Shown here: positions 37,890 through 64,000 of the stretch, piece after piece
Numbering within the stretch: the stretch's first letter is position 1
Layout: every line of letters begins with the position of its first letter
IMG/VR virus record: IMGVR_UViG_3300020391_000003
Span: 120,325-184,324 of that record
Direction: 5' to 3' (one strand)
DNA length: 64,000 nucleotides
DNA from: a virus
Position numbers and translations under genes: made by a program
The notes under the pieces: model-generated
Databases searched by the model: none
Seen by the model: the letters and a program-made list of their open reading frames with translations, nothing else
What the model was told of the DNA's origin: nothing

Positions 37890-37890
37890 T

Positions 37891-38514: not shown

Positions 38515-39443
38515 ATCAATTCTTTTAATCCTTCCTCAAAATTTACACTAGGAGACCAATTCAATTCATCTTGAATTTTATTATTATCAATTGCATAACG
38601 CCAATCGTGACCTAATCTATCTTTCACAAACTCTATTTGGCTTTCATCCTTGCCTAGCAGTTTAAGAATGGTTTTAACGATATGAATGTTTCGCACTTCA
38701 TTTTTGCCGCCAATATTGTATACTTCACCAATTTTTCCTTCATGCAGAACTGCATCGATACCAGAGCAATGATCTGAAACATGAATCCAGTCGCGAATAT
38801 TTCTACCATCACCATAAACAGGAAGTTTTTTTCCTGCTTTAGCATTTTTAATTATTAATGGAATTAATTTCTCTGCATGTTGATTTGGCCCGTAATTGTT
38901 TGAGCAGCGAGTAATTAAAATAGGATAGCCAAAAGTCTCATAAAAACTGCGACATAATAAATCTGCGCTAGCCTTGCTTGCAGAATAAGGGCTATTAGCT
39001 TGTAACGGAGTGTTTTCAGTAAAAGCATCGTCTTCCTCAGTTAAACTGCCATATACCTCGTCTGTGGACACTTGAAGGTATCTCTCGACACTCGGGCAAT
39101 CGTGAAGCAAACTCAATAAAGAATGTGTTCCATTTATGTTAGTCTGTACGAAAGGAGTTGAGTCATTTATACTATTATCAACATGACTTTCCGCCGCAAA
39201 ATTAACTATGTAGTTTATATTGTTCGTCTGCACAAGACTTTTAATATAACTAGTATCATTTATATCTGATACTATTAATGAATACCTATTTGAGTTAGAT
39301 ATATCATCATGTATATTGTCAAAATTAGAGGCATATGTACGAGAATCTACATTAAATATTTTGTAGTCGTATTTATTAAATACATATTTAATAAAATTAC
39401 TTCCAATAAAACCTAAGCCTCCTGTTACTATGATTTTTTTCAT
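38511..39443 (-). CDS. rfbB: dTDP-glucose 4,6-dehydratase
   Basis: VTGGLGFIGSNF, NFAAESHVDNSI, VSTDEVYG, SPYSASKAS, RCSNNYGP, DRLGHD.RY. Confidence 0.92.
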   Translation of the reverse strand: MKKIIVTGGLGFIGSNFIKYVFNKYDYKIFNVDSRTYASNFDNIHDDISNSNRYSLIVSDINDTSYIKSLVQTNNINYIVNFAAESHVDNSINDSTPFVQTNINGTHSLLSLLHDCPSVERYLQVSTDEVYGSLTEEDDAFTENTPLQANSPYSASKASADLLCRSFYETFGYPILITRCSNNYGPNQHAEKLIPLIIKNAKAGKKLPVYGDGRNIRDWIHVSDHCSGIDAVLHEGKIGEVYNIGGKNEVRNIHIVKTILKLLGKDESQIEFVKDRLGHDWRYAIDNNKIQDELNWSPSVNFEEGLKELM

Positions 39444-39835
39444 TTTAACATTAGTATTGAATTTTTTGTTTCTTCTGTTATGGGAGATGGTAGGCAATTC
39501 TTTTCTATTTTAAAAAATCCCCACTCTTCATGCTCTACAGCATCTATAGCTTTTTGATCTGGAAATATTAAATCATCAACATCTGAATAAAAAACATAAA
39601 ATGTGCCTCCTTTATAATTTTCAAAATAAGTAAGAAATTCGATTGGTGAATTTAAAATAATATTTGTTTCTTCAAAGAATTCTCTTTTTGCAGCATCAAT
39701 AGGTTTTTCAAAATCTTCACACATACCACACGGCATTGACCAATATCCACCAAGGATTTCGCATGTTCTTGATCTTCTTCCTAGAAGAGCAAGATTGTTG
39801 AATCTTATAATTATTCCTGCAGAATTAATTTGCAT
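39440..39835 (-). CDS. NUDIX hydrolase
   Basis: W.MP.G..E..E.P.DAAKREFFEETN Nudix box. Confidence 0.85.
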   Translation of the reverse strand: MQINSAGIIIRFNNLALLGRRSRTCEILGGYWSMPCGMCEDFEKPIDAAKREFFEETNIILNSPIEFLTYFENYKGGTFYVFYSDVDDLIFPDQKAIDAVEHEEWGFFKIEKNCLPSPITEETKNSILMLK

Positions 39836-50902: not shown

Positions 50903-51583
50903 TTATAAGGGTTTTAAATTTTTTGTCAATAACTCGAATATTTGTTGTTTTGTTTTTTTGTCAGATTTTGACCACTTATACATGATATCATTTTTTATTT
51001 GTTTTATGTTTTTTTGCATTTTTTGTATTTCAGACCTTAATTGCTGAATGAATTTTGGCGTTATATTTTTTATTTGCACGTTTAATTCTAGAGCTACTTG
51101 AAGTATTTTTCTCAAGTCTCCTCCTTGTTTTCCTTTTACCGCCTCATTGTACAGGTCAACCATTTCTTCCATTTCTTCTTGTGGTAAATCTTTATTAAGG
51201 TCTGGGTGAGTTTTTTTTACTATCTCTCTGAACAAATCATTCATATTTTTATCTGAAAGATTTTCTTTTTGTTTCGCTTCTGGAGAAACCGACTCAAATG
51301 GATCTTCTATTTTTTTATCTTTGCAATACTCTAACATTTTGCTTATGAATATATGGCGAACTTCTTCGAATTCTTCAATTAATTCTTCATGTTCCATGTT
51401 GAGATACAAGGCCTTGTGGCGTAATTTTTTAAATTGCTTTCTTAATTGTTTTTGGGCTTGTGGAGCAGAGTATTTTACAGGAAGATTTTCTTTTGCGTAT
51501 TTTTTGTTTTCAGGTGTGTGTTTGCCTAATTCATGTTTAGGTTTGTCTCCAAATAAATCATCAAATAATTCTTCTCTGTTCAT
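50903..51583 (-). CDS. J-domain (DnaJ-like) co-chaperone protein
   Basis: LFREIVKKTHPDL HPD motif in a central helical domain; GTGTA 9 nt upstream. Confidence 0.7.
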   Translation of the reverse strand: MNREELFDDLFGDKPKHELGKHTPENKKYAKENLPVKYSAPQAQKQLRKQFKKLRHKALYLNMEHEELIEEFEEVRHIFISKMLEYCKDKKIEDPFESVSPEAKQKENLSDKNMNDLFREIVKKTHPDLNKDLPQEEMEEMVDLYNEAVKGKQGGDLRKILQVALELNVQIKNITPKFIQQLRSEIQKMQKNIKQIKNDIMYKWSKSDKKTKQQIFELLTKNLKPL

Positions 51584-51597: not shown

Positions 51598-51623
51598 AAA
51601 AAAGGCGACCCCAAAGGGTCGCC
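51598..51623 (-). terminator. Terminator after the repeat-fibre gene
   Basis: GGCGACCC-TTTG-GGGTCGCC followed by TTTTTT on the minus strand. Confidence 0.88.
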
Positions 51624-51652
51624 CAAGAATTAAATCTTGCTCGTATTACTGA

Positions 51653-52657
51653 TTAACCTGCGATTGACGCAATCAATTCCACTGTATAATTAGCGGAAGG
51701 AACTGCATCTGCGAATGTTACAGTAGCAGCACTTGTACTTACTGCAGAAACCATGCAGGCAATGATTGGATCATTTGCGTTAGAGCTCTTTAGTAAGGCT
51801 ACAACAACTGGTGTTGAAGCGAATGTTCTACCAAATGCTATTGAACCAGAATTATCTGCTCCATTACTTATTGGAGAGCTTTTGGCTACGACATCATTTG
51901 TAGCAATCAATCCAGCAAGGCTGGAAATGTCACTGTCTGTAGTACCTTCGTCTGCATTACGCTGAGCTTGTAAGCTAGAAACGTCACTTTCGAGATCTCC
52001 CTTGTTTTTGGAGATGTCACCAGCAAGACTGGAAACGTCACTATCTGTAGTACCTTCGTCTACGTTACGCTGAGCTTGTAAGCTAGAAATGTTGCTTTCG
52101 AGATCACCTGTGTTTCCGGAGATGTCACCAGCAAGACTGGAAATGTCACTGTCTGTAGTAGCTTCGTCTACGCCGCGCTGAGCATGCAAGCTAGAAACGT
52201 CGCTTTCGAGGTCTCCCTTGTTTTTGGAGATGTCACCAGCAAGACTGGAAACGTCACTATCTGTAGTGCCTTCGTCTACGCCGCGCTGAGCATGCAAGCT
52301 AGAAACGTCGCTTTCGAGGTCTCCCTTGTTTTTGGAGATGTCACCAGCAAGACTGGAAACGTCACTATCTGTAGTGCCTTCGTCTACGCCGCGCTGAGCA
52401 TGCAAGCTAGAAACGTCGCTTTCGAGATCTCCCTTGTTTTTGGAGATGTCACCAGCAAGACTGGAAACGTCACTATCTGTAGTGCCTTCGTCTGCCACAC
52501 GCTGGGCGTGCAAAGATGAGATATCACTTTCGATTGTAGCTTTACTCATTAGTGTGGAACCGCTGCTATCTGTAATTTCAAAAGCATCGGTTGCACTCGC
52601 TGCCAAGCGGATATTGCCCGCTAGGTCTAATGTTTCGGTACGGAATATTTTAGCCAT
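51653..52657 (-). CDS. Coiled-coil repeat fibre protein with an H-lectin/gp53-like tip
   Basis: Eleven 18-aa repeats followed by FGRTFASTPVVVA..VSTSAATVTF beta domain; own terminator. Confidence 0.7.
   Translation of the reverse strand: MAKIFRTETLDLAGNIRLAASATDAFEITDSSGSTLMSKATIESDISSLHAQRVADEGTTDSDVSSLAGDISKNKGDLESDVSSLHAQRGVDEGTTDSDVSSLAGDISKNKGDLESDVSSLHAQRGVDEGTTDSDVSSLAGDISKNKGDLESDVSSLHAQRGVDEATTDSDISSLAGDISGNTGDLESNISSLQAQRNVDEGTTDSDVSSLAGDISKNKGDLESDVSSLQAQRNADEGTTDSDISSLAGLIATNDVVAKSSPISNGADNSGSIAFGRTFASTPVVVALLKSSNANDPIIACMVSAVSTSAATVTFADAVPSANYTVELIASIAG
51911..52525 (-). repeat. 108-bp (36-aa) coding tandem repeat made of alternating 18-aa A/B units, about 5.5 copies
   Basis: DVSSLHAQRGVDEGTTDS / DVSSLAGDISKNKGDLES. 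Confidence 0.95.
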
Positions 52658-52721
52658 ACGTAACTATATACGTTCAAAAAAAGAGTATGGGAAATTTTTT
52701 TTTGAAGGGATTTTTTTCGTT

Positions 52722-53519
52722 TTACAGGGACTCTGTAGAAAAATTATTTTGCCAATAGCTCATGAATATTTTCTTTAATTCATATGGATAGGCCATAAAA
52801 TGTAATATAAATGAATCTTCGTTTACTAGCCTTGGGTCTGTATTAAATTCGTTCATTTCGAATATTTTTCTATTAAATCCAAAGCCATCACTTTTTCTTA
52901 AAATTTCGCAGAGTATTTCTTGATCTCCGCCGCTGGCGTACAGTGAAGACTTGTCTCCATTGAAATCTCGCCATTTTGTAATTAAGTTTTTTGTGTATTG
53001 ATGAGATTTAAAAAATAATACCCCGCTATTTAACATACAATGGTTGCCAATATCTTTTGTTGCAAGTATGAATTTTTTAGGAGATTTTTCTATAATCGAC
53101 TCGAGTTTTTTTTCTGGATTAAAAATTAATGTATCAGAGTCCATCCAAACTATGTAATCGTGATCGTCAATATGGTTTAATAAGGCTTGCGATTTTGACC
53201 AGTTTGGGCTTCCGTTTTTGTCTAACTTTTCTCTGTAGACGTAAAAACTGTAACCCTGCTTTTCGCAGTAATTTTTAATACTTTCTTCTGAGTAAATAGC
53301 AAATTCAGAAATTTCTTTAGTATACAAGCTGACAATCGCAATTTTCTTAAATGGATTAAAGCAATTGAATCTATCTTCAGGTTCTTCAATCACAGGTATT
53401 TGCGAGCTTATGTATTTAACCCAATCAAAAAGCTTTCTGTGTTTTCCGAATCTATCATTATTGAAAAAATTAAGCCATTCGTTTTTTAGGCCTATGAATT
53501 CTTGTTGTTTTTTATTCAT
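52722..53519 (-). CDS. Glycosyltransferase, GT34 (MNN10/GMA12)-like
   Basis: WSK, VWMDSDTL, LNSGVLFFK, GGDQ, DSFILHF. Confidence 0.8.
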   Translation of the reverse strand: MNKKQQEFIGLKNEWLNFFNNDRFGKHRKLFDWVKYISSQIPVIEEPEDRFNCFNPFKKIAIVSLYTKEISEFAIYSEESIKNYCEKQGYSFYVYREKLDKNGSPNWSKSQALLNHIDDHDYIVWMDSDTLIFNPEKKLESIIEKSPKKFILATKDIGNHCMLNSGVLFFKSHQYTKNLITKWRDFNGDKSSLYASGGDQEILCEILRKSDGFGFNRKIFEMNEFNTDPRLVNEDSFILHFMAYPYELKKIFMSYWQNNFSTESL

Positions 53520-55154
53520 TTAATATAATTTAAAATCTTCACTATTTAAAATTTTTGCTCCTGCGTTTTTAATCTTGCTTGTTAATAATAACTCGTTAAT
53601 TATGCACTGAGTTTTTTTCTTGAATAGTTTAACATTTGATTCTATCTTAAATTTACTATGCCAGCCTTTTGTCAACCAGTTTATTATGTGATTCTTTAAA
53701 TCGCTTGAAATCCTTGACGAATTTAGAAATGAATTTAATTCGTTTTCATCCTGAATTAATGAGTCAATTTTTATTTCCGAAGAGTTGTCTAATTTTATTT
53801 TTTGCAGTATTTTATTTGGTATAATAATCGCATTGCTACAAATCCAGTTGTTAAATTTCGCGTTATCAAGTGAAAAGTTTTTTTCCGATAAATTTAATCC
53901 ATCAATCTTTCCAAAAACTAAATCGTGTTTTTTTAATACATTTAATAAATCTTGATTTAAATGTTTGCCTATAACTTTTGTATTATAATTTAAGAAAGAA
54001 TCATTTGTTATTAAAATTAAGTCATAATGCTTGCCTTTTGATTCGTCGAATCCTTTTTGCCAACCCGAGAACTCCCAGTTTAAATTGTTACCTGGAATTA
54101 TTGATATTTTTTTTCCTTGAAATTTATTTAATCCTTCTCGCTTGTTATCTATTACTACGCAATCAAAATCTATACCTTTATTGTATAAGGCATCGGATAA
54201 AATTTTAAAAGAATGAGGGTATTTGTTGGAGTCGAATTGAGTATATAAAACTAAAAGATTTGCTTTGTCTTGAGGGTTAATTTTAAATCTAGAGCAATAT
54301 CTATCATGCACTCCGCATAATACGAAGATATCTGTCCCCTCTTTTTCTAAACTGCAACAATAAGATTTATCTTCTGGGGGATTTATTTCTTTTTTTTCTT
54401 TTATTATTATTTCTTTATCTATTATTTCAAAGCTTACCTTGTTAAACTTGTATTCGTATTCACCTCTTCTTTCGTGGCAAAGCATTATGAATTCATTAGA
54501 CTGAATATTTATAGGGTTACATGAGTTTCTGAGATTTATATTTTGATCTAGGTTGATGTTATTAAAAGAAATATTCTCTAATTTTTGTGCAGTTGTATAG
54601 ATGAGGGGAAACATAGAGTATATCACGTAAAACAAATCTTCATATTTGAAGCTCATCCAGTTTTTATTTGGATTGATTTGGTTTATTGAGTCGAATTTTT
54701 TAATATTAGTGATTTCAAGTTTAGATAAGTTTACTGAGCAGTGCCCTGCTGAAAAATCAATAGACACTTTTTTGCATTCTTCGTCATGGCAGATAGTTTG
54801 GTTTATTATTGTGCATGTAGCTAAAGCAATGATATCGCCGTTTTCTATTGTTACTGCACCATGTATAAATCTTATATCTTCAGGAAATTTATAATCTGGA
54901 TTTACATCTTTTTTTATATAGCTGTGGATTTTTTTCCCTTTTATATTGAATTTTAATTTAACATATTCGCCAGAATCTTCTTTTAACCAATAGGTAGATT
55001 GGCCATTAAAGTGGCCTCTGGGCGGAGGAGAGTTTTTGTAGTCTTCTCCTCTCGCAATAGTATATTTTTTGCCATTAAAGTTTGTTGAGCTTGGATTGAA
55101 GATGCAAATTGTTTTTTCGCCGGTTATTGATTTGCCTATATTTTTTAAGTTCAT
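53520..55154 (-). CDS. Two-domain glycan-modifying protein (propeller-like N-terminus, GT-like C-terminus)
   Basis: PEDIRF, KNWMSF, LRNS propeller-type motifs; VVIDN, WEFSGWQKG, ITNDSF in the C-terminal domain. Confidence 0.5.
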   Translation of the reverse strand: MNLKNIGKSITGEKTICIFNPSSTNFNGKKYTIARGEDYKNSPPPRGHFNGQSTYWLKEDSGEYVKLKFNIKGKKIHSYIKKDVNPDYKFPEDIRFIHGAVTIENGDIIALATCTIINQTICHDEECKKVSIDFSAGHCSVNLSKLEITNIKKFDSINQINPNKNWMSFKYEDLFYVIYSMFPLIYTTAQKLENISFNNINLDQNINLRNSCNPINIQSNEFIMLCHERRGEYEYKFNKVSFEIIDKEIIIKEKKEINPPEDKSYCCSLEKEGTDIFVLCGVHDRYCSRFKINPQDKANLLVLYTQFDSNKYPHSFKILSDALYNKGIDFDCVVIDNKREGLNKFQGKKISIIPGNNLNWEFSGWQKGFDESKGKHYDLILITNDSFLNYNTKVIGKHLNQDLLNVLKKHDLVFGKIDGLNLSEKNFSLDNAKFNNWICSNAIIIPNKILQKIKLDNSSEIKIDSLIQDENELNSFLNSSRISSDLKNHIINWLTKGWHSKFKIESNVKLFKKKTQCIINELLLTSKIKNAGAKILNSEDFKLY

Positions 55155-55158
55155 AATT

Positions 55159-56664
55159 TTAAATGAATTTCATTTTGTTTTTATCTATAGGGTTTTTTAT
55201 CCCCCAATGCTCAACACCGCTTTCATCGTACATAGCTTCTTTGCCGAGACCATTGCCGAAATTAAAAGTATTTTTATCATATTTAAATATAAAAGTCTCT
55301 TCAGGGACAGTCTCTATGAAGGTTTGAGAATATTTTGATTGATTTATTTTTTTAATTATTTTATCTGACACTTCTTTGCTTGGGTATCTTTCTAGGGCGT
55401 GGCCATAAATCAGTTTAGTCAAGCCATGAAAGTAGGTAATTGGTGCCAGCGTAAGTATGTCCTGCCATCCTGATCTTCTTCTTCTGAGCATTAGATCTAG
55501 CGCTGACTTATGTAGCGGATTATTTGGGGCGCTTATCATAATATCTTGAGAAAAATCGATAATTTTTCCATGATTGGAGTGCAAGGGTAGGACACATTTT
55601 GCGTTTTTTTCTATGATTGAGTTTAGTTCTTTATTTGCGTGCCTATCTATGTCTGTATATAGGCCGCCTTCGTTTACTATTTTTAATAAACGCCACGTGT
55701 CAACTTTTGATACAATTGGGGCATCTTTTATTAAATTGTAATCTATAGTTGATAAATTTTCTTTCAAGTATACTTCGACTTCATTATCATCTGAAATTTC
55801 AAGTTTCCATTCTGGGTTTATTTTTACTAGATTTTGTATTCCGTTTATGGCTAATTGATTTGAGCTTTCTAATATAGACCTATCTTTCCATGATATATGA
55901 ATTTTCTTGGGTATTGAGGGTAAAGGTTCAAGGAGATCATCTAAATTTTGTTTCTGTGAACTTATTCTCATCACAGAGGAGTTTCTGAAGTAATTAGATT
56001 TTCGATTAGATAAATTTATGGGGTCCGAAAAAACTTCTTTGTTGTATCTTTTGTTATCTAATTCGAAATTGGTTGCAGCTTCTCTTCCGCCAAACTTTAA
56101 GTCTTGCAAGAAGATAGGTTTTTTAAGCGCGTAAACATTATAGTTTGATTGCATTTCAGCGGCAAATACATCCCAGATTTTTTCTTGATAAAAACCGTCG
56201 ATCATGGCTTTCTCATAGGCTGCGGCACCAAGTGCGGAGCAAATCATAATTGCGTGACCGCTTAGCATATTAAATATTTGATAAGTATTTTCATCAATTT
56301 GTTGAGCAGAAATATTATCAATAGCTTTACCGTTGTTCATTGCAAGCTGAGATAATCCTAGATAAAATAAATCTGTATCATTAGGAATGTCAATTTCTTT
56401 TGGCATTTCTCGGTAAAAAGATACGTCATCCTCTAATATTACGAATGGCTGAAATGGTCTTGAATTATCTTGCTCCCTTAGGCCTGCTTCAATCATTCTT
56501 GCGTGACCTATACTTCCCGATTTTTCTTTTGATATGCCTATTTCGTAAGGTAGTATTTTTCTAAAATTATAGTCTTTTAGTATAGATTCTATATGTTTAG
56601 AGTTTTCACTATTTTTTGTTTTTGTTAGGTAATAAAATTTAAGATTGTTTGTTTTTAATATCAT
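55159..56664 (-). CDS. Bifunctional glycosyltransferase (GT25-like + GT32-like)
   Basis: FVILEDDV..LFYLG..LSGHA; IPKKIHISW, KVDTWRL..EGGLYTDID. Confidence 0.75.
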   Translation of the reverse strand: MILKTNNLKFYYLTKTKNSENSKHIESILKDYNFRKILPYEIGISKEKSGSIGHARMIEAGLREQDNSRPFQPFVILEDDVSFYREMPKEIDIPNDTDLFYLGLSQLAMNNGKAIDNISAQQIDENTYQIFNMLSGHAIMICSALGAAAYEKAMIDGFYQEKIWDVFAAEMQSNYNVYALKKPIFLQDLKFGGREAATNFELDNKRYNKEVFSDPINLSNRKSNYFRNSSVMRISSQKQNLDDLLEPLPSIPKKIHISWKDRSILESSNQLAINGIQNLVKINPEWKLEISDDNEVEVYLKENLSTIDYNLIKDAPIVSKVDTWRLLKIVNEGGLYTDIDRHANKELNSIIEKNAKCVLPLHSNHGKIIDFSQDIMISAPNNPLHKSALDLMLRRRRSGWQDILTLAPITYFHGLTKLIYGHALERYPSKEVSDKIIKKINQSKYSQTFIETVPEETFIFKYDKNTFNFGNGLGKEAMYDESGVEHWGIKNPIDKNKMKFI

Positions 56665-57745
56665 TTATTATCTTATTATATATATTAATGTTGTCTTGAT
56701 TGTATGGGCTATACTGTTTTAAAAAGTTTTTGTTATCATATTTGGTTTGATCTAATGTTTTGCTATGATTTAGTATGGCGTTCTTTAATTGGTTTGCCCC
56801 GAAGTCCACATCGCAGTCGGGATAATAATAACCTACATCTTCTAGAGTCGAAGAGTTGTGTATTAAGGGTAGGTTTAAGAATAAAGCTTCAAGGTAACTA
56901 TAGTTCAGTTCGTTTTTAATTTGATGACTAACTATGGTGCTACCAAATTTGCTCAACGCATCAAGTAAGCTCCATCTTTTATTGAAATAGCAGAAGTCTT
57001 TCTTTTTTACCACTTCTAATCTGTTCATTAGTTTTTCAAAGAAAGGATTAAATTTAATTCTTTGGCAACAGAATATGTTTATGGAGTTTAATATTTTCGG
57101 ATCTTTATGATAAAGATTTTCGCATATATTAATTGGTATTACGCAATTTTTAATAAAAGATATGTTTGGTTCAAAGACGCACACTTTTTTAATTTGTTCT
57201 TTTTTAAAGCTTGGGTCCATACCCTTTTTTTTAAGTTCTTTTATCTTATCTTCTATGAAAAAAGAGTCCCATATGAATGGAATAATTATAACGTCTTTGA
57301 AGTTATAATAAGTTTTTATGTAGCTTTGGGAATACTCATGTTGAGGAGATATCCAGATTTGTTCTAGGTGTTTAGGTTTTTCTAGTGGCAGCTTGGGGCT
57401 TTTACTTAATAGGGAATGATTGATATCATCCATTAACTTATTGCCAAAATGTATTAGTATTGTTTTGAAATTGCTATTCCTGGATTTTAATTTGTCGTAC
57501 ATTTCTGGAAATAAATCGAATCCGGCCACAATTAATAGGTCTAAATTTTCATTATCGTCGGCAAGCAAATCATCTAAAAGCATACCTTTATGATTTTTCT
57601 TTAGTGTGTGAATAGGTTTTTTATGGGTAATGTAAAAACATTCGTGCCCACATCTTTCTATCATTTCATAAAGAAATACGATGTTTTGTTGCATTCCGTT
57701 TGCCCAAAAAGCAACGGACATATCTAGTGTAATTCCTATTTTCAT
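56639..57745 (-). CDS. DUF2827-family protein
   Basis: IGITL..FWANGMQQNIVFL, IWISP, PFIW, VFEPN, HQ..NELNYSYLEAL..LIHNS, GYYY. Confidence 0.75.
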   Translation of the reverse strand: MKIGITLDMSVAFWANGMQQNIVFLYEMIERCGHECFYITHKKPIHTLKKNHKGMLLDDLLADDNENLDLLIVAGFDLFPEMYDKLKSRNSNFKTILIHFGNKLMDDINHSLLSKSPKLPLEKPKHLEQIWISPQHEYSQSYIKTYYNFKDVIIIPFIWDSFFIEDKIKELKKKGMDPSFKKEQIKKVCVFEPNISFIKNCVIPINICENLYHKDPKILNSINIFCCQRIKFNPFFEKLMNRLEVVKKKDFCYFNKRWSLLDALSKFGSTIVSHQIKNELNYSYLEALFLNLPLIHNSSTLEDVGYYYPDCDVDFGANQLKNAILNHSKTLDQTKYDNKNFLKQYSPYNQDNINIYNKIINDIKNKQS

Positions 57746-58542
57746 AATTTTATTTTTGTTTTTCTCAATGGTAAGAAGTCTATATTATTTGCGATTAATA
57801 ATATTGCTTGTTTATATATTTCAGTAGGCCTATGGTTTAGTTTGTCATCACCTTCGTAGCTTCTTTGATATGCTCCCCAAACTTGACACGAAAACACTAG
57901 CCAATAATACTCTAATTCTGTATCGCACGAGATTTCTTCATTCGCGAATCTAACAAAGCGATCATAATCTAAAGGGTGGTGACCCATAAAGTGTATTAAA
58001 AAGTCTCCACGATTGTATAGAGTTGGGTATATATTAAAGTGATGTGGGTTTACAGGGTTGAGTTTGCTATGTTTTCTTAGAACATCTACTAGCCTACCTT
58101 GATCAGCCCCATTTCCGTTTCCCCCATGCCTCCAGGGTTTGTCTGTACCTATCAATCGAGATTCCCACCACTCATTTAACACTTGTAGTGAATAATTATT
58201 TGTTCTAAAAAACAAAACGCCAGAATTTAGAGGACTAGCCCCAGGGTCTTTTGCGTATAAAATATCTCGTTCTGAGCTACTTAAATAAGTATATAAATCG
58301 AAGTCTCTATTAACTATTGCAGTATCAATGTCTATCCACCCTAGGTATTCATATTCATTAAAATGCTGCAACAACTTTAGCGGCTTTTGGTAATTAACAT
58401 GAACTGACTTATCAAGAGTTCCTGCCGCTCCCAGGTAGTCGTAGCCTTTTCTGCTGCAATAATCTATAACTGAATTTACGCAATTCTTGCGTTTTTCATA
58501 ATATTTTAAATCGGATAGTTGACAAATTCCTATTTTTTTCAT
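57742..58542 (-). CDS. Glycosyltransferase, GT34-like
   Basis: YQKP, GWIDIDTAIVN, LNSGVLFFR, ADQG, GDFLIHF. Confidence 0.75.
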   Translation of the reverse strand: MKKIGICQLSDLKYYEKRKNCVNSVIDYCSRKGYDYLGAAGTLDKSVHVNYQKPLKLLQHFNEYEYLGWIDIDTAIVNRDFDLYTYLSSSERDILYAKDPGASPLNSGVLFFRTNNYSLQVLNEWWESRLIGTDKPWRHGGNGNGADQGRLVDVLRKHSKLNPVNPHHFNIYPTLYNRGDFLIHFMGHHPLDYDRFVRFANEEISCDTELEYYWLVFSCQVWGAYQRSYEGDDKLNHRPTEIYKQAILLIANNIDFLPLRKTKIKL

Positions 58543-59618
58543 GACAATAATTTTTTATATTTTTCTATAACAATTGGATTTGTTGGAGAGTATTTGTAGA
58601 TTATTTTTTGCGCTTCATCTTTGTATTTATCTAAATTTTTATCGTGATAATTTAGGGCGAGGTTTAGGGCCTCTGCCCCTAACTTGGTGTCGTAATTAGG
58701 GTAGTAGTATCCAGATTCTTTGATCAGCTCAGAGTTGTGAACAAGTGGCAAATTAAAATGTAACGCTTCGAAATATGTATAATTTAAAGAATTTAATAGT
58801 TGATTTGAAATTATCACATTAGACATATCTGTAAATATTTTAGAAACTTTTATTCTTCCTTTAAATTCTATTTTATTTTCTTTTGTTACATCTAGTTCCC
58901 ACATTAGGGATTTGAAGTATTTTTTATCCAAAAATTTTGCCGCGCAATAAACTGTTATTTTATTGAAATCATTTCTGCTAAACTTTGTGTAAAATTCTTC
59001 GGCTATCATGATTGATGGAAGGCAGTGCTTTGTCATGTTTAAATTGGGTTCGAGTATTCCAATATTTTTAGCTTCGCCAGGATTGTAACGGCAGGTCTTA
59101 TTTATTTTGTTCCATATTTTTTCATGCATATCTATATATTTTGAGCTCCAGATATAAGGTAATTCAAATACTTTTTCTGTATTATAGTATGTTTTATAGT
59201 AGTTGTATGAAAATTTGTAATGAGGAGATATCCATATTTCGTCAACCATTTTTGTGCTTATGGCTAAATGATCTTGCCAGCTACATCTTTCTATGTCTGC
59301 TAAAAGACCGTTTCCATAAACAATATGTATGTTTTTTGAATTTTTATTTTTTGCTTTTATTAATTTTATTATATCATTATTTATTAACCAGGAAGTATTT
59401 AATATAAAAGATATATCTTCACAATATTCTAATAATTCATTTTCTTCTACAATTAAAATATCACATGGAGGATCAATGCATTCTTCCATTTTATGGTTTA
59501 TAGCAATAATCGGAGTAAATCCGATATCTTTTAATAAATCAGCAAGGAACACTATGTTTTGTTGCAATCCATTGCTGAATAGCCCGTTTTTATAATTAGC
59601 AGTAAGCAATATATTCAT
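58539..59618 (-). CDS. DUF2827-family protein (second paralog)
   Basis: LFSNGLQQNIVFL, IWISPH, PYIW, ILEPN, NQLLNSLNYTYFEAL..LVHNS, GYYY; GTGTA 10 nt upstream. Confidence 0.75.
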   Translation of the reverse strand: MNILLTANYKNGLFSNGLQQNIVFLADLLKDIGFTPIIAINHKMEECIDPPCDILIVEENELLEYCEDISFILNTSWLINNDIIKLIKAKNKNSKNIHIVYGNGLLADIERCSWQDHLAISTKMVDEIWISPHYKFSYNYYKTYYNTEKVFELPYIWSSKYIDMHEKIWNKINKTCRYNPGEAKNIGILEPNLNMTKHCLPSIMIAEEFYTKFSRNDFNKITVYCAAKFLDKKYFKSLMWELDVTKENKIEFKGRIKVSKIFTDMSNVIISNQLLNSLNYTYFEALHFNLPLVHNSELIKESGYYYPNYDTKLGAEALNLALNYHDKNLDKYKDEAQKIIYKYSPTNPIVIEKYKKLLS

Positions 59619-59648
59619 CGCATTTTATTACACGGCAAATTTCAATAT

Positions 59649-62264
59649 TTATTCTGAAATGACAAAACTAGCAGGATTTAATGTGGAGGTATTAGCTGAC
59701 CTATTTAACTTATCAAGGTTAAATAAAAATGATCCGTTTGAGTCTGCAATACCATTAGAGTCGCACACTGTAAAATTATTATTTTCATCTATTGCGTTGG
59801 ATAATTGAAAACCGTCGGCATATGATTTATATGTATAAATGGTGCCTCCGTTTGGTGCAGTTCCACCTTCTGATATATTTTCCAAAGATACGTTGGTTGG
59901 ATTTGAAACCGTAGTGCCTATATCGGCTAATCCTGCGCCTAGACTATTTGGTGATGCGGATATGGTTCTAGAAGAAAATCCTTCTAATTTATATGTTGGT
60001 CTTGTAGAAATTGATGTAGTTTCTATATTGGCCAAATTAAAAGCTGAAACTTGCCATGAAAATGTTCCTTTGGTGTCGACATCTTTTGCAACTATTGTAA
60101 AAGAATTGCTGTTTCTTCCTGTGCCGGATGAATTTATGGTAAGTTGAGATGGGTTTGTTTGTGCGCTGCTGGTAGATAAGGATGGAGCAGTAAGCATTAA
60201 TTGATTACTGGACATTGAGAATTGATCTGAGTTGCCAGCTGGAGAGCTAATTAATTTTGAAGCTAAGTTGTTGATTGACAAAGATAAAGGTGTATTTGCA
60301 ATATTTACCACATCTTGATCTTCTATTGTAATTCCATTTGAGGTTTTTGTTGCAGATATTTTTATATTATTTTGACCACCATCATTTTTTACATTGTATC
60401 CCCCGTTTAAATAATCCACACTTTTATTTGATTCGAACGTATTAGGGTTGGATATTGTTAACTGGTTATTTGGCGATGCGTATATTACTGAATCGTAATT
60501 GTTTAGAGTGTTTAAAACGGTTGCGCTTTCTGTGTCTTTAATAGCTTGTTGTGAAGCAGGGTAGGTAATTGATGATATTGAAACTGATGGAGCGCTACCG
60601 TTATTTAATTTAGCTGTATCTGTTGTTGTGAATTTGTCGCTTTGTGTGCCAAAATTATTTCTAGCCTTAAAGGATGCAGCTTGATCTCCGTCTCTATTTG
60701 AGGATCCAATTGAACCAAATACAGAGATAGGAACTGTGAATTTATATGTTCCGTCTGATAGAGTTGTTTTGGAGTAAGTTGAAGAGAAAGATGTTTGTGT
60801 CCCCTTTGATACCCCTTCATTTTGAACAGAAATTGAAATGTTATTAATGGAAACTCCTTTTCCGTCAACAACAATTTCTGAATTGATAGTGTCACCAGCC
60901 TTAACTTCTTGGGTTCCAATAATATGTGGAGATGTTGTGGATGTGGCTAATGAGTCTAATGATCCGCTGATGATCGCTGGACCGTTCGCAATTTTTACTT
61001 TCACTCTTTCTGTATCTGTAGCTCCATTGTTTGTTCTAAGTGCATGTATTTCAATATTATCTGAATTATTAAATATACCACCAACATAATTTACCGTTTT
61101 AGGTGATTCGAATATTCCTGAGTTAGTTATGCTGATTTCAGAATTCAAAGATGAATAAGAAACCGTATCTGTGGTATCTTGCCAGTTTAATATGCTGTTT
61201 GAAAAGGTTGTAGACTCACCTTCTCTTAGGCCGTCTGATCTTCCATTATATGATGTTGGATCACTTGCGTTAATAATTGGATATAGTTGATCAAGGTCTC
61301 TTGTTCCGCTGGTATGACCGTAATCAGTCGATTCTTTTAAATCACCTGTAGCACCAAAGGTATTAATTGCTTGAACTGCGACTGAGCTTGGACCAGATCT
61401 ATTAGAAACTGTTACGGGAATCGTAGCCCTAAAAAGTCCACCTATGTCCACTAAATTGTAATTACTAAAATCAATTTCTTCTGCTAAGCCATGATTGTGA
61501 ACTTTTATAAAGTCTACGTCATTCCTATCAAAATCAACGAATATATTAATTGTGTCTCCTTGTTTTAAATGAGAGGATCCTAGTTCATGGCCAGGTCTTG
61601 CGGTTGCATTTGATATTTCGTCAATCATTATATTTACCGCCTCAGGACCGCCACCAAGTTCATTTAAAGGTATGATTGTAGATCTACCATTTGCGTGTCC
61701 AGTTATGCCTGTAAAACCTTCAAGATTAACATTATCCAAAAATCCTTTAAACCTTCTTGTATTATCTCCAAGTTCTTCTATATTTTCAAGAGGTATTGCT
61801 TGGCCATTAATGGAAGCAAATCCAACATAATCTTGACTTGGTCCGTCCCATTCTATCTCGATTCTTAAATCTTCGGCAGTAGCCACAGTAACTCCCGAAA
61901 GATGAGTGTTTGCATCTGGGGTATTGGTATAAAATATTTTTTCTGTAACTCCGATATTATCACTAACATCTGAGAAAAAAACAAATTCTGCGGCTCCAGA
62001 ACTAACTTGAGTTATTGAAGTGTTTAGGGTATCTAGTTTTGTTGCAACATCAACACCCGCAACGGTCAAACCATTAGTGAAGTTTCCTTGATTAAATTCA
62101 ACTGAATCAGTAGTTCTTACGTTTTGATCCATGACAAGAAACTCATTGTTAATTAGCTTGCCATCAAAATATAGATTATCAAAGACGCCTGTACCCCAGG
62201 CTCTGCCTATTCTACCTACACTGCCTTCTCCGCTATTTCTTGGAACTAGATTTCTTGTGCCCAT
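59649..62264 (-). CDS. Large Ser/Thr/Gly/Asn-rich virion protein (fibre/baseplate-like, Ig-like repeats)
   Basis: RNLVPRNSGEGSVG N-terminus; internal similarity (LK.GDTIN / VKAGDTIN; FESPKTVNY / FESNKSVDY); GTGTA 9 nt upstream. Confidence 0.6.
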   Translation of the reverse strand: MGTRNLVPRNSGEGSVGRIGRAWGTGVFDNLYFDGKLINNEFLVMDQNVRTTDSVEFNQGNFTNGLTVAGVDVATKLDTLNTSITQVSSGAAEFVFFSDVSDNIGVTEKIFYTNTPDANTHLSGVTVATAEDLRIEIEWDGPSQDYVGFASINGQAIPLENIEELGDNTRRFKGFLDNVNLEGFTGITGHANGRSTIIPLNELGGGPEAVNIMIDEISNATARPGHELGSSHLKQGDTINIFVDFDRNDVDFIKVHNHGLAEEIDFSNYNLVDIGGLFRATIPVTVSNRSGPSSVAVQAINTFGATGDLKESTDYGHTSGTRDLDQLYPIINASDPTSYNGRSDGLREGESTTFSNSILNWQDTTDTVSYSSLNSEISITNSGIFESPKTVNYVGGIFNNSDNIEIHALRTNNGATDTERVKVKIANGPAIISGSLDSLATSTTSPHIIGTQEVKAGDTINSEIVVDGKGVSINNISISVQNEGVSKGTQTSFSSTYSKTTLSDGTYKFTVPISVFGSIGSSNRDGDQAASFKARNNFGTQSDKFTTTDTAKLNNGSAPSVSISSITYPASQQAIKDTESATVLNTLNNYDSVIYASPNNQLTISNPNTFESNKSVDYLNGGYNVKNDGGQNNIKISATKTSNGITIEDQDVVNIANTPLSLSINNLASKLISSPAGNSDQFSMSSNQLMLTAPSLSTSSAQTNPSQLTINSSGTGRNSNSFTIVAKDVDTKGTFSWQVSAFNLANIETTSISTRPTYKLEGFSSRTISASPNSLGAGLADIGTTVSNPTNVSLENISEGGTAPNGGTIYTYKSYADGFQLSNAIDENNNFTVCDSNGIADSNGSFLFNLDKLNRSANTSTLNPASFVISE

Positions 62265-62287
62265 TTATTATATTACACCCAAGGTTA

Positions 62288-62941
62288 TTAAAAAGATATA
62301 TCGTCAGTAAATGCATTTGGACCTGTATCATATCTCCAAAGATTAGCTCTTAATTCTAAATTATTATCGTCTCTAAGAATCCACATTGTATCAGATATGA
62401 ATTCATGGGTTGTTGGGGTAACTTCCCCAAATTCATTTAGTTCAAAAGCTTCTTTTTGAAGAAATCTGCTTCTAAGCATTTCTTCTTCGAAGCCACTACT
62501 TAATCCACTGCCACCAACTCCTGAAATCTCGATGCCTGAAACTGTAGATTGGAGTTCGTTAATTTCGTTCAAGAGTGATAATCCGGTAGAATCAAGATTA
62601 CCACTTAATGTATCAATATGTTCGTGGAGATGAAGTTCTGTGGTTTCGAGATTACCACTTAATGCATCAATATGTTCGTGGAGATGGAGCTCTGTGACTC
62701 CGGGGTTTCCACTTGATAAGTTAAAACCTGTAGAATTTTGTAGTAAGTCAATAATATTTATTTTTTCTCCAGATAAATTTTGTAAAAATCCAGATTTAAA
62801 ATTTAATTGATCTACATCAATTTGTTTAGTAGAAAGTTTTTTTCCTTCAATTAATACAAGTGGATCAAAGGGCTGCTGGCCAATAATATACTTATCTTTG
62901 CCAATCTTTCTTAATGCATTTTTTATTTGAAAAAATTCCAT
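62288..62941 (-). CDS. Fibre-like protein with a His-rich 18-aa duplication
   Basis: ELHLHEHIDALSGNLETT / ELHLHEHIDTLSGNLDST. Confidence 0.6.
   Translation of the reverse strand: MEFFQIKNALRKIGKDKYIIGQQPFDPLVLIEGKKLSTKQIDVDQLNFKSGFLQNLSGEKINIIDLLQNSTGFNLSSGNPGVTELHLHEHIDALSGNLETTELHLHEHIDTLSGNLDSTGLSLLNEINELQSTVSGIEISGVGGSGLSSGFEEEMLRSRFLQKEAFELNEFGEVTPTTHEFISDTMWILRDDNNLELRANLWRYDTGPNAFTDDISF
62595..62695 (-). repeat. 54-bp coding tandem duplication
   Basis: 62595-62641 matches 62649-62695 with few substitutions. Confidence 0.9.
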
Positions 62942-62947
62942 AATTTA

Positions 62948-64000
62948 TTAGATTACATCGTTATCGCCTGTAACTTTATATACTATAGAATATTTAACTG
63001 TATATCCAGAAATAGTATGAGGCCTTTTAATAAAAACCCTTCCCGCTTCGTCATTGTCTATTTTTACTCCGATATCTGAATCAATAAATATTAAATCTTC
63101 ATTTTTTGGTGAAACTGGTTCATTTTTATTTAATCTTCTATCTGCAGTATGAAATTGTATTGGATATGATGATTCATTAAAAATAACAATGTGATCCATT
63201 AAGCCTCTTTCATATAAGTTGTTATAATCTTCTAGTTCATAAGAATTTATCAAACTAGCTGAAACGTTTTCTTGACGAAGCGAAAATTGCGTGTCTGTGT
63301 GAAATGTGCTAAATGAGTCAACGCATCTGTCTTGCGGTGTATATTCTGAGTGTATAAAGTATTCTGGATGAGCTATTTCGAGCTCGCTTTTATTCATTCT
63401 GCCATTTTCAAAATAAGTTCCAAAAACATCATCCATTAAATTTTTATTTGTTCCGTAACAACTTCCAGAGTCAGTGCCATACCTTAAATTATCTGGTATA
63501 TCTTCCATTAATATGAAATCTTCTTCTATTTTTTGATTAACAGTTTTTGTTCTTTTTTTATAAGGCTGAGTGTCACTTCGTTTTATAGTTACTCCTTCGC
63601 CGGAAAAACCAATATTACTTAATTTAGATATGACTCCAGAAAGAAGTTCGTGCGTTTTTACATCAGAATCTAATTCTACATCAACGTGTATGTTAGAAAG
63701 TTCTCCAGAAATACCAGAAAGTAATCTATGGGTTTCGCTGTCATCTATATCTATATTAGAAAGCTCTCCAGAAACCCCAGATAGTAACCTGTGAGTTTCT
63801 GCGTCATCAATATTGATATTAGAAAGCTCTCCTGAAACTCCAGATAGTAACCTGTGAGTTTCTGTATCGTCAATATTGATATTAGAAAGCTCTCCTGAAA
63901 CCCCAGATAGTAACCTGTGAGTTTCTGTATCGTCAATATTGATATTAGAAAGCTCTCCTGAAACCCCAGATAGTAACCTGTGAGTTTCTGTATCGTCAAT
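62948..64000 (-). CDS. Repeat-containing virion protein, 5'-truncated by the window edge (at least 350 aa)
   Basis: Frame from 64000 (IDDTETHRLLSGVSGELSNIN...) is open without stops into the ATG at 63508 called by the track. Confidence 0.8.
   Translation of the reverse strand: MDDTETHRLLSGVSGELSNINIDDTETHRLLSGVSGELSNINIDDTETHRLLSGVSGELSNINIDDAETHRLLSGVSGELSNIDIDDSETHRLLSGISGELSNIHVDVELDSDVKTHELLSGVISKLSNIGFSGEGVTIKRSDTQPYKKRTKTVNQKIEEDFILMEDIPDNLRYGTDSGSCYGTNKNLMDDVFGTYFENGRMNKSELEIAHPEYFIHSEYTPQDRCVDSFSTFHTDTQFSLRQENVSASLINSYELEDYNNLYERGLMDHIVIFNESSYPIQFHTADRRLNKNEPVSPKNEDLIFIDSDIGVKIDNDEAGRVFIKRPHTISGYTVKYSIVYKVTGDNDVI
63692..64000 (-). repeat. 63-bp (21-aa) coding tandem repeat, about 5 copies, running off the window
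   Basis: Period 63 bp; unit IDDTETHRLLSGVSGELSNIN; copies degrade toward the C-terminus. Confidence 0.92.

What the first reader, a model, noticed from the sequence alone, without database searches (positions are those of the whole stretch)
51653..64000. Candidate virion-fibre glycosylation system: two DUF2827 and four GT genes sandwiched between Ser-rich fibre genes
Six co-oriented, overlapping or abutting genes (DUF2827, GT34-like, DUF2827, GT25+GT32, propeller+GT, GT34-like) start from a GTGTA motif. They are flanked on both sides by Ser/Gly-rich repeat structural genes, and nucleotide-sugar genes lie elsewhere in the window. From memory, bacterial DUF2827 genes cluster beside adhesin genes and are suspected GT-B protein glycosyltransferases. 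Inference: DUF2827 paralogs initiate glycosylation on fibre serines and the GT-A enzymes extend it, giving a glycan-coated tailed phage analogous to giant-virus fibrils. Purposes could include host-glycan mimicry or shielding.
Basis: partly seen in the sequence, partly recalled or inferred. Interest (0 to 1): 0.82.

Follow-up and report, generated by a model that had tools for sequence, protein, structure and literature searches.

The report
Phage fibre glycosylation gene cassette
An uncultured 184-kb marine phage carries, in one operon with its serine-rich fibre genes, a conserved pair of uncharacterised DUF2827 enzymes plus a variable set of sugar-adding enzymes. The same enzyme family sits beside serine-rich fibrous adhesins in bacteria, so the cassette most likely coats the phage's fibres with sugars, although no glycan has been observed.

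Summary
Six co-oriented, overlapping or abutting glycosyltransferase genes (two DUF2827, two GT34-like, one GT32-containing, one propeller+GT) lie at 52722-59618 on the minus strand. They sit behind a GTGTA box and between the two most Ser/Thr-rich large proteins of the genome.

New evidence:
- DUF2827 models as a GT-B, GT4-like enzyme (pLDDT 96; Z 23.6 to BshA).
- The two paralogues are adjacent in all 28 related viral contigs and are predicted to form a heterodimer.
- The GT-A genes behind them vary even between close strains.
- Wherever enough downstream DNA is held, a fibre gene follows, although the cassette occupies two different genome positions.
- The 334-aa fibre is a coiled coil with a lectin-like knob. 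It carries an SSL triplet once per repeat, in all 88 distinct repeat units taken from 11 homologues.
- Bacterial DUF2827 genes lie next to extremely Ser/Thr-rich trimeric autotransporters with the same kind of motif (25 of 31 full-length loci).
- A conserved terminator closes the unit after the fibre gene.
- The genome has no ThyA/ThyX-type gene, which argues against DNA glycosylation.

The acceptor and the glycan remain unproven. The database label "tail sheath" for the upstream 871-aa gene is probably wrong: it is phiKZ gp145-like, a putative tail fibre. Verdict: a plausible new variant of virion glycosylation, working like GtfA/GtfB with serine-rich adhesins.

The parts
58539..59618 (-). 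DUFb, the first DUF2827 paralogue (359 aa) and first gene of the cassette
   Evidence: PF10933, E 6.5e-64. It is 32% identical to DUFa. Family-invariant residues are kept in 16 orthologues. It forms its own clade.
59629..59633 (-). GTGTA box 10 nt upstream of the DUFb start codon
   Evidence: Kept in 13 of 14 relatives. The same box precedes the gp145-like gene, g226, the 2381-aa fibre gene and a protease-like gene (PHROG phrog_3677).
57742..58542 (-). GT34b, a GT34-like GT-A enzyme (266 aa), dispensable in some strains
   Evidence: PF05637, 38.7 bits. DxD at residue 71. Absent from L001 and L006-L009. One RNA-library contig skips it.
56639..57745 (-). DUFa, the second DUF2827 paralogue (368 aa)
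   Evidence: PF10933, E 8.6e-74. AF2 model with pLDDT 96 and a GT-B fold; VIA Z 23.6 to BshA. Predicted heterodimer with DUFb: ipSAE 0.84 against a best control of 0.00.
55159..56664 (-). Two-domain GT (501 aa): an N-half like giant-virus GT25-like proteins and a C-half GT32-type DXD domain
   Evidence: PF04488 at residues 274-354 and phrog_24091 at residues 1-219. Atlas feature neighbours. DxD at residues 96 and 338.
53520..55154 (-). 544-aa protein: N-terminal GH130/BMT-like beta-propeller plus a C-terminal GT-like domain, dispensable in some strains
   Evidence: Atlas features and structure rows. No Pfam or NCBIfam hit. Absent from L001, L002, L008 and L009.
52722..53519 (-). GT34a, a GT34-like GT-A enzyme (265 aa). 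It is always the last GT module before the fibre gene.
   Evidence: PF05637, 44.3 bits. DxD at residue 127. It is present, free or as the C-terminal module of fusion proteins, in every locus that extends far enough.
51653..52657 (-). Candidate acceptor: a 334-aa fibre with an N-terminal beta module, a helix of about 215 residues built of 18-residue repeats each carrying D-[IV]-S-S-L, and a C-terminal lectin-like knob
   Evidence: No signal peptide and no TM segment. RNA-library contigs identical to it were found.
51603..51624 (-). Intrinsic terminator closing the unit after the fibre gene
   Evidence: Nine-pair stem with 7 G-C pairs, followed by a T run. Kept in seven relatives with compensatory stem changes.
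50903..51583 (-). g226, a Lys/Glu-rich 226-aa protein that follows the fibre gene in most relatives and has its own GTGTA box. Function unknown.
59649..62264 (-). 871-aa phiKZ gp145-like tail structural protein (putative tail fibre class), 23% Ser+Thr. It is labelled 'tail sheath' in databases, probably wrongly.
   Evidence: phrog_15433. tblastn to PhiPA3 gene 165, which is annotated 'similar to phiKZ gp145'. In phiKZ, gp29 is the sheath and gp145/146 are putative tail fibres.
62288..62941 (-). 217-aa repeat protein (18-aa repeats containing ALSGNL), 134 to 1021 aa long in relatives
62948..64000 (-). C-terminal 350 residues of a 507-aa repeat protein (21-aa repeats containing LLSGVSGELSN). Its start lies at the other end of the contig.
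36400..39497 (-). Nucleotide-sugar genes: a GDP-mannose-dehydratase-like gene, a nucleotidyltransferase and a dTDP-glucose 4,6-dehydratase. They are possible donor supply.

Best explanation
The unit is a cytoplasmic protein O-glycosylation system for virion fibres.

Proposed steps:
1. A DUFa-DUFb heterodimer of GT-B (GT4-like) enzymes puts the first sugar or sugars on the exposed Ser-Ser of the repeated h-S-S-h motif. That motif sits on the alpha-helical coiled-coil stalk of the fibre encoded directly downstream. The same enzymes may also act on the similar h-S-G-h repeats of the neighbouring fibre proteins.
2. The strain-variable GT-A modules (GT34-like, GT32, GT25-like, propeller+GT) then extend the glycan. 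They use host donors and phage-made nucleotide sugars.
3. The glycosylated fibre is built into the virion.

What is shown and what is inferred:
- Shown: gene identities, the GT-B fold, conserved synteny, the operon boundaries, the motif statistics and the parallel with bacterial loci.
- Inferred: the acceptor, the order of action and the biological purpose. Candidate purposes are diversification or masking of an exposed surface, or fibre stability.
For: 1. DUF2827 is a GT-B enzyme.
- AF2 model pLDDT 96. Foldseek E 1.6e-10 and VIA Z 23.6 (rmsd 4.0 A, 326 residues aligned) to BshA.
- The protein O-glycosyltransferases SdgB (Z 18.6) and GtfA (Z 18.4) are also in the list.

2. The architecture is a conserved pair plus a variable set.
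- DUFb-DUFa is adjacent in all 28 IMG/VR loci.
- The GT-A content differs even among relatives whose DUFa is 83-91% identical, and is fused into proteins of up to 1216 aa in others.
- Elsewhere DUF2827 is fused to GT2, GT25, GT32, GT11, GT31 and GT77 domains.

3. A fibre gene always follows.
- In one clade it is the 334-aa type. In the other it is a 760-1430-aa fibre homologous to the 2381-aa giant fibre.
- This holds although the cassette sits at two different genome positions.

4. The SSL motif.
- S-S-L occurs once per repeat in 11 fibre homologues: 88 distinct 18-residue windows taken around SSL triplets, with spacings of 11, 14, 18, 22 or 25 residues. The rest of the repeat diverges.
- The stalk is modelled as one long helix.
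- By my own reading of the 18-residue repeat, the flanking V/I and L fall at core positions, which would leave the two Ser on the surface.

5. An independent parallel in bacteria.
- 390 DUF2827 places were found in 185,579 species genomes.
- 25 of 31 loci with full flanks hold an ORF of at least 250 aa with Ser+Thr of at least 25%, at a median gap of 1.4 kb. These are trimeric autotransporters whose 14-18-residue repeats carry ITSL, VSSV or SSGLSN motifs.
- The association is also reported in bioRxiv 10.64898/2026.01.22.700529.

6. The cassette lies between the two most Ser/Thr-rich large ORFs of the genome.

7. It forms one unit with structural genes.
- The GTGTA box is shared with tail genes.
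- No terminator lies between the last GT gene and the fibre gene, and a conserved terminator lies right after the fibre gene.

8. None of the six enzymes has a TM segment or signal peptide.

9. The model supports a DUFa-DUFb complex.
- ipSAE 0.84 against a best control of 0.00, in a calibration where 58 of 80 solved complexes and 2 of 110 mismatched pairs reached the mark.
- The runs share at least 95% of contacts, and the partner's pLDDT is 90.
- Both paralogues keep the family's invariant residues.

10. RNA-library contigs identical to the window cover the fibre gene, the 544-aa gene and DUFb.
Against: - No glycan, mass shift or enzyme activity has been observed for any DUF2827 protein.
- The best fold matches act on small molecules (BshA, MshA), so the fold does not name the acceptor.
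- All 28 viral loci belong to one phage lineage. The synteny may only reflect a hypervariable tail-fibre region that collects accessory genes.
- In L018 the short fibre gene is convergent with the cassette, not co-transcribed.
- A D-h-[ST]-[ST]-L repeat frame also occurs in a coiled-coil protein of Bacillus Herelleviridae phages, which gave no DUF2827 match. The frame itself is therefore structural, and only the strict Ser-Ser is special here. Concerted evolution of repeats could inflate that.
- The predicted heterodimer uses the same surface on both paralogues. It could mirror a homodimer of the family.
- Contigs from RNA libraries cannot show timing, and they may contain DNA.
Confidence: 0.5

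Rival explanations
1. The virion is glycosylated, but the acceptor is another structural protein (the gp145-like 871-aa protein, the capsid or the tail tube) rather than the coiled-coil fibre repeats.
For: The 871-aa neighbour is the second most Ser/Thr-rich large ORF. In mycobacteriophages the known acceptors are capsid and tail-tube C-termini, as summarised in PMC12619734.
Against: In clade L010-L023 the cassette is not next to the gp145-like gene, yet it is still followed by a fibre gene. The bacterial parallel points to repeat-bearing fibrous proteins.
Confidence: 0.15
2. The enzymes remodel a host surface glycan or a host adhesin (LPS, capsule or a host Ser-rich protein) during infection, for example to block superinfection.
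For: GT25-, GT32- and GT34-type enzymes and deoxysugar genes are typical of LPS and capsule pathways.
Against: No flippase, polymerase, initiating phosphoglycosyltransferase or Gtr-type membrane protein lies in the unit, and all six proteins are soluble. The unit has the same upstream box and terminator as the structural genes. A fibre gene follows it wherever enough downstream DNA is held.
Confidence: 0.12
3. The cassette builds a free or lipid-linked oligosaccharide or polysaccharide that is not attached to a phage protein.
For: The top fold matches are small-molecule and polysaccharide GT4 enzymes.
Against: It does not explain the strict linkage with fibre genes in phages, or with Ser-rich autotransporters in bacteria.
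Confidence: 0.1
4. The enzymes glycosylate phage DNA, as the T4 alpha- and beta-glucosyltransferases do.
For: T4 AGT and BGT are GT-B enzymes and appear in the fold lists (Z 18.8). Virus-encoded GTs that hypermodify DNA are known (reference 46 of PMC12619734).
Against: No ThyA-family gene (which includes the hydroxymethylases) and no ThyX-family gene was found in the complete genome at E<=0.001. Bacterial DUF2827 genes sit by adhesin genes, not DNA-modification genes. Six GTs with propeller and GT-A modules fit glycan building.
Confidence: 0.04

Closest known systems
GtfA-GtfB priming complex plus variable extension GTs of serine-rich repeat adhesins (SRRPs) in Gram-positive bacteria (PMC6973325)
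   Same: A conserved two-protein GT-B unit is followed by a species-variable number of further GTs. All are encoded next to a Ser-rich repeat fibre that is glycosylated in the cytoplasm before assembly or export. GtfA is among the fold matches (Z 18.4).
   Different: This is a different enzyme family: there is no DUF1975 domain. Both DUF2827 paralogues keep the catalytic-looking residues, whereas GtfB is a non-catalytic chaperone. There is no accessory Sec system. The acceptor would be a helical coiled coil with one Ser-Ser per repeat rather than a disordered SRR region. The product would be a virion part.
DUF2827 genes next to trimeric autotransporter adhesins in Burkholderia, Veillonellales and Pasteurellales (bioRxiv 10.64898/2026.01.22.700529)
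   Same: Same Pfam family, two or three tandem paralogues, cytoplasmic location, and a position next to a fibrous repeat protein. I find the neighbouring adhesins are 25-54% Ser+Thr, with h-S-S-h type repeats.
   Different: That work covers bacteria only and tested no function. Here the genes are in a phage, are joined to GT-A genes in one operon, and their neighbour is a tail-fibre-type protein without signal peptide or beta-barrel.
Virion glycosylation of mycobacteriophages (Freeman et al. 2023, as cited in PMC12619734)
   Same: Phage-encoded glycosyltransferases decorate virion proteins.
   Different: The acceptors there are the C-termini of capsid and tail-tube subunits, the enzymes are not DUF2827, and the hosts are actinobacterial. 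I could not read that paper here.
Glycosylated fibrils of giant viruses and chlorovirus capsid glycosylation (own knowledge, not checked here)
   Same: The virus encodes its own multi-GT and nucleotide-sugar machinery for surface structures. The nearest language-model neighbours of two GT modules here are Nucleocytoviricota clusters.
   Different: Those are eukaryotic viruses with unrelated acceptors, and no DUF2827 involvement is known.
SdgA/SdgB glycosylation of Ser-Asp repeat adhesins in staphylococci (PDB 7ec1/7vfm in the fold list)
   Same: GT-B (GT4) enzymes act on a short Ser-containing repeat of a surface fibre. SdgB gives Z 18.6.
   Different: SdgB has an extra acceptor-binding domain, and there is no sequence relation to DUF2827.

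Membership tests
DUF2827 (Pfam PF10933) | Full-length match to the family HMM above the gathering score | tested here: met
   249 bits and 216.5 bits against a cut-off of 25, covering positions 2-361 and 10-362 of 362. Confirmed on the genome.
GT-B fold glycosyltransferases (GT4-like) | Two Rossmann-like domains with a cleft between them, superposable on solved GT4 enzymes | tested here: met
   AF2 pLDDT 96, pTM 0.92. VIA Z 23.6, rmsd 4.0 A, 326 residues aligned to BshA 6n1x. 136 chains score Z>=8, and the 50 entries shown, down to Z 15.6, are almost all GT-B glycosyltransferases.
GT-B fold glycosyltransferases (GT4-like) | E-x7-E motif of the C-terminal domain (own knowledge of GT4) | tested here: inconclusive
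   By inspection, the stretch H-Q-x-x-N-x-L-N-Y-x-Y-L-E reads N278-x7-E286 in DUFa. The second Glu is kept and the first is Asn. No structural superposition of side chains was done.
GT34 (Pfam PF05637) | HMM match above the gathering score, plus a DxD motif | tested here: met
   44.3 and 38.7 bits against a cut-off of 23, but only profile positions 26-99 of 238 are matched. DxD at residue 127 and residue 71. The two are 33% identical to each other.
GT32 (Pfam PF04488 DXD region) | HMM match above the gathering score, plus a DxD motif | tested here: met
   33 bits against a cut-off of 23 at residues 274-354 of the 501-aa protein. D-I-D at residue 338.
GT25 (Pfam PF01755), N-half of the 501-aa protein | HMM match | tested here: inconclusive
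   No Pfam hit at E<=0.01. Atlas feature score 0.95 to giant-virus clusters, of which 14% carry PF01755.
GH130/BMT-type five-bladed propeller, N-half of the 544-aa protein | Propeller fold | tested here: inconclusive
   Only the Atlas model (pLDDT 0.70). TM 0.65-0.68, normalised by the hit, to GH130-bearing clusters over residues 1-300. No Pfam hit.
SRRP / GtfA-GtfB / accessory Sec system | GtfA and GtfB with a DUF1975 domain, plus SecA2/SecY2 and Asp proteins | tested here: not met
   Pfam finds none of these in the ten genes of the region. The resemblance is one of mechanism only.
phiKZ gp145-like tail protein (the 871-aa protein) | Sequence homology to the gp145 homologues of phiKZ-like phages | tested here: met
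   tblastn E down to 1e-27 over 59-88% of the query in 65 records. The PhiPA3 match is annotated 'similar to gp145 of phiKZ'.
Contractile tail sheath | Match to the sheath families PF04984 or PF17482, or to the phiKZ gp29-type sheath | tested here: not met
   No match in the genome at E<=0.1. The only place matched in PhiPA3 is the gp145-like gene. In phiKZ the sheath is gp29.
H-type lectin domain (C-terminus of the 334-aa fibre) | Beta-sandwich superposable on Helix pomatia agglutinin | tested here: inconclusive
   Foldseek E 0.02-0.06, TM 0.43-0.53 normalised by the lectin. Hits are mixed with pyocin-fibre and tailspike domains. No Pfam hit.

The most novel reading that the evidence does not exclude
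DUF2827 hetero-oligomers are a new family of cytoplasmic protein O-glycosyltransferases. They would recognise a Ser-Ser (h-S-S-h) sequon displayed once per repeat on alpha-helical coiled-coil fibres, and would be used both by bacteria for trimeric autotransporter adhesins and by a widespread marine phage lineage for its tail fibres. That would make them a Gram-negative and viral counterpart of the GtfA/GtfB-SRRP system, with strain-variable glycans on the phage's host-recognition organ.
Probability: 0.35. Interest if true: 0.8.

Novelty: new variant of a known kind. Interest (0 to 1): 0.66.

Why it matters
- It would assign a function and a sequon to a domain of unknown function that accompanies adhesins in Burkholderia and other bacteria.
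- It would extend phage virion glycosylation from mycobacteriophage capsids to the tail fibres of an abundant uncultured marine lineage.
- It offers a compact, soluble set for testing: two enzymes plus one 334-aa acceptor.
- Strain-to-strain gain and loss of the GT-A modules suggests that the glycan, like an O-antigen, is under diversifying selection. That would bear on host range and on recognition of phage particles.

Tried and rejected
Tools and searches that gave nothing or could not be run:
Context came from the search for related loci instead.
- Megablast of the region and tblastn of DUFa against 50,697 GenBank phage records found nothing. No cultured relative could be used.
- The wide DUF2827 alignment had no stretch conserved enough for a genome-contig scan. 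A narrower alignment worked.
- Sequence searches of PDB with the DUF2827 profile, the 871-aa protein and GT34a gave nothing useful.
- The listing of cluster members gave almost no names.
- PMC10527164 (Freeman et al.) is not held.

Reading revised:
- I first read the 871-aa protein as a tail sheath, from PHROG and RefSeq labels. I rejected this after seeing that the matched genes are phiKZ gp145 homologues.

RNA evidence, limited in what it can show:
- RNA-library contigs cannot rank genes, give timing or prove transcription.
- Two contigs end 1-2 nt before the ATG of the fibre gene and of DUFb, and two stop just before the terminator. These are hints only.
- Parts of the region without RNA contigs say nothing.

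Tree:
- The tree is a quick tree with long branches and compositional bias, and it is unrooted. It shows two phage clades but no donor.

Not tried:
- I did not fold an enzyme-acceptor complex. The single complex job went to the DUFa-DUFb pair.

Full report
**What is there.** The window is the last 64 kb of a single-contig, 184,324-bp uncultured marine virus record. It has no near relative among 50,697 GenBank phages. On the minus strand, six genes run head to tail from 59618 to 52722 with 4-nt overlaps, one 26-nt overlap, one 4-nt gap and one abutting junction.

Pfam identifies the first and third as DUF2827 (PF10933, E 6.5e-64 and 8.6e-74). The second and sixth are GT34-like. The C-half of the fourth is a GT32-type DXD domain. 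The fifth has no Pfam family. The ESM Atlas model of the fifth gene shows a GH130/BMT-like propeller at residues 1-300 followed by a separate alpha/beta domain. The N-half of the fourth resembles giant-virus GT25-like clusters only by language-model features. None of the six proteins has a TM segment or signal peptide. The window also holds a dTDP-glucose 4,6-dehydratase, a GDP-mannose-dehydratase-like gene and a nucleotidyltransferase.

**The flanking genes.** Downstream lies a 334-aa protein with 5.4 copies of a 108-nt repeat. AlphaFold models it as a small N-terminal beta module, one helix from residue 39 to 253, and a C-terminal beta domain. That C-terminal domain weakly resembles H-type lectins, pyocin fibre knobs and tailspike domains.

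Upstream lies an 871-aa protein. PHROGs and several GenBank records call its relatives 'tail sheath'. However, the matched PhiPA3 gene is annotated as similar to phiKZ gp145. In phiKZ the sheath is gp29, and gp145/gp146 are putative tail fibres. The genome matches no Pfam sheath family.

Further upstream are a 217-aa and a 507-aa repeat protein. The latter is cut by the contig end, and its start is at the other end of the contig. Of 74 ORFs of at least 250 aa in the genome, the two richest in Ser+Thr are the two genes that flank the cassette.

**What DUF2827 is.** I built an alignment of 71 family members from an exhaustive HMMER search. That search found 984 clusters (each a 50%-identity cluster) at E<=0.001. 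DUFa folds with pLDDT 96 into a GT-B enzyme. The best matches are retaining GT4 enzymes: BshA at Foldseek E 1.6e-10 and VIA Z 23.6. The protein O-glycosyltransferases SdgB and GtfA, and T4 alpha-glucosyltransferase, score around Z 18-19. So the fold shows a nucleotide-sugar transferase but does not name the acceptor.

Longer family members fuse DUF2827 to GT2, GT25, GT32, GT11, GT31, GT77 or Fringe-like domains. This places the family in multi-step glycan assembly.

**Comparative anatomy in viruses.** Twenty-eight IMG/VR loci encode relatives. In all of them DUFb and DUFa are adjacent and in this order. The genes behind them differ:
- Close relatives (DUFa 83-91% identical) have four different combinations, with or without GT34b and with or without the 544-aa gene.
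- More distant relatives carry fused multi-domain GTs of 630-1216 aa.
- A GT34a-like module comes last in every locus that extends far enough.

The cassette occupies two genome positions: behind the gp145-like gene, or behind the p659-p177 pair. In every locus with enough downstream DNA, the next gene is a fibre gene. It is either the 334-aa type or a 760-1430-aa protein homologous to the 2381-aa giant fibre of this genome. In one locus (L018) the short fibre gene is convergent with the cassette.

**The candidate sequon.** Across 11 homologues of the 334-aa fibre the repeats diverge strongly and use periods of 11, 14, 18, 22 or 25 residues. Each repeat still holds one S-S-L triplet, usually as D-[IV]-S-S-L: 88 distinct 18-residue windows were taken around these triplets. 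In an 18-residue coiled-coil repeat, V/I and L fall at core positions and the two serines between them face outward. This placement is my own reading of the repeat, not a computed result.

The neighbouring 507-aa and 217-aa proteins, and the large fibres of the other clade, carry the related h-S-G-x-h motif.

One caution applies. A Bacillus Herelleviridae phage protein has a similar D-h-[ST]-[ST]-L frame, and those phages gave no DUF2827 match. The frame is therefore structural, and only the strict Ser-Ser is distinctive here.

**The bacterial parallel.** A pattern scan of one genome per species found 390 DUF2827 places. Most are in Burkholderiales, with others in Moraxellaceae and Verrucomicrobia. 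The 80 best loci hold one to three tandem copies each. Of 31 loci with full 8-kb flanks, 25 contain an ORF of at least 250 aa with Ser+Thr of at least 25%, at a median gap of 1.4 kb. These ORFs are trimeric autotransporters. Their stalks are long arrays of 14-18-residue repeats containing ITSL, VSSV or SSGLSN, the same motif class as in the phage fibres.

A 2026 preprint reports the DUF2827-adhesin association independently and suggests glycosylation. A quick tree puts phage DUFa and DUFb in two sister clades apart from the sampled bacterial sequences. It also shows that bacterial tandem copies fall into position-specific clades, so the paralogues are old and not redundant (quick tree, unrooted, long branches).

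**A two-protein enzyme.** Both paralogues keep the family's invariant residues. The complex predictor supports a DUFa-DUFb dimer: ipSAE 0.84 against a best control of 0.00. In its calibration that mark was reached by 58 of 80 solved complexes and 2 of 110 mismatched pairs. The runs share at least 95% of contacts, and the partner's pLDDT is 90. The interface uses the same surface on both chains, so it may mirror a homodimer of the family.

**Expression unit.**
- The GTGTA box sits 9-10 nt before 13 of 150 start codons in the genome. These include the gp145-like gene, the giant fibre gene, a protease-like gene (PHROG phrog_3677), g226 and DUFb. It is kept upstream of DUFb in 13 of 14 relatives, at both genome positions.
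- The fibre gene has its own GT(G/A)TAT box at the same distance from its ATG, plus a conserved TTCCCA box further upstream.
- The only strong terminator in the region lies directly after the fibre gene and is kept in relatives through compensatory stem changes.
- Contigs from metatranscriptomic libraries of two studies cover the fibre gene and several GT genes. They cannot show timing or level.

**Rivals.**
- DNA glycosylation is unlikely. The complete genome has no ThyA-family gene (which includes the hydroxymethylases) and no ThyX gene.
- Host-surface remodelling is not excluded, but the unit lacks membrane or export components, and this rival does not explain the fibre linkage.
- Another virion protein could be the acceptor.
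- A free glycan could be the product.

**Comparison and verdict.** The system works most like the GtfA/GtfB priming pair with variable extension GTs next to serine-rich repeat adhesins (PMC6973325). It is not a member of that system, because the families and the export route differ. Phage virion glycosylation is known from mycobacteriophages (cited in PMC12619734). I rate this as a new variant of a known kind. It remains unproven without chemistry.

Noticed in passing
window 62288-64000 and genome 1-1938 (L031:1-1938): The two contig ends repeat each other. The 507-aa repeat protein at L031:415-1938 (minus strand) ends with the same sequence as the open 350-aa frame at the window's end. The 217-aa gene appears at both ends but with three rather than two 18-aa repeats. 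The genome is therefore circular or terminally redundant, and the population varies in repeat number. IMG/VR lists the record as linear.
   Followed up: partly
window 59649-62264; PhiPA3 NC_028999.1 150758-153493 (L116): PHROG phrog_15433 and several GenBank/RefSeq records label phiKZ gp145 homologues 'tail sheath'. In phiKZ the sheath is gp29 and gp145/146 are putative tail fibres, so the label looks like a propagated mis-annotation.
   Followed up: yes
window 52658-52725 and the matching spacers in L002, L005, L006, L009, L025 and L027: Upstream of the fibre gene, a conserved TTCCCA box lies about 16-17 nt before a GT(G/A)TAT box, which itself lies 9-10 nt before the ATG. RNA-library contigs end 1-2 nt before the ATG of the fibre gene (52659) and of DUFb (59619). 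This hints that the GTGTA-type box is a -10-like element giving nearly leaderless mRNAs.
   Followed up: partly
L001-L009 versus window 53520-55154 and 57742-58542: Near-identical strains carry four different GT sets, with or without GT34b and with or without the 544-aa gene. One metatranscriptome contig joins 57738 to 58536, which removes GT34b. The glycan-building part is gained and lost quickly.
   Followed up: partly
genome 3746-4339, minus strand (L031): A 197-aa protein with a weak Sigma70 region 2 match (E 2e-4) lies next to an SSB gene and a dNMP kinase gene. It is a candidate phage sigma factor that might read the GTGTA box.
   Followed up: no
genome 5663-11343, plus strand (L031): A further sugar-related block: a weak GT1 match, an RXYLT1_C-like domain, and a HAD phosphatase fused to a nucleotidyltransferase. 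An APS-kinase-like gene at genome 80510-81331 also carries the GTGTA box.
   Followed up: no
window 50903-51583, minus strand: g226 is a Lys/Glu-rich 226-aa protein with no family. It follows the short fibre gene in nearly all relatives and has its own GTGTA box. It may be a fibre assembly factor.
   Followed up: no
L117:2405-3682 (Bacillus phage vB_BsuM-Goe17): A 425-aa hypothetical protein of Herelleviridae phages has coiled-coil repeats of the form K-S-D-[VI]-[ST]-[ST]-L. They resemble the marine fibre repeats, and those phages gave no DUF2827 match.
   Followed up: partly
L075, L095, L098, L058 (Oxalobacteraceae and Comamonadaceae loci): Bacterial triplets of DUF2827 genes fall into three position-specific clades shared across genera. 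The tandem arrangement is therefore ancient and the copies are not interchangeable.
   Followed up: partly
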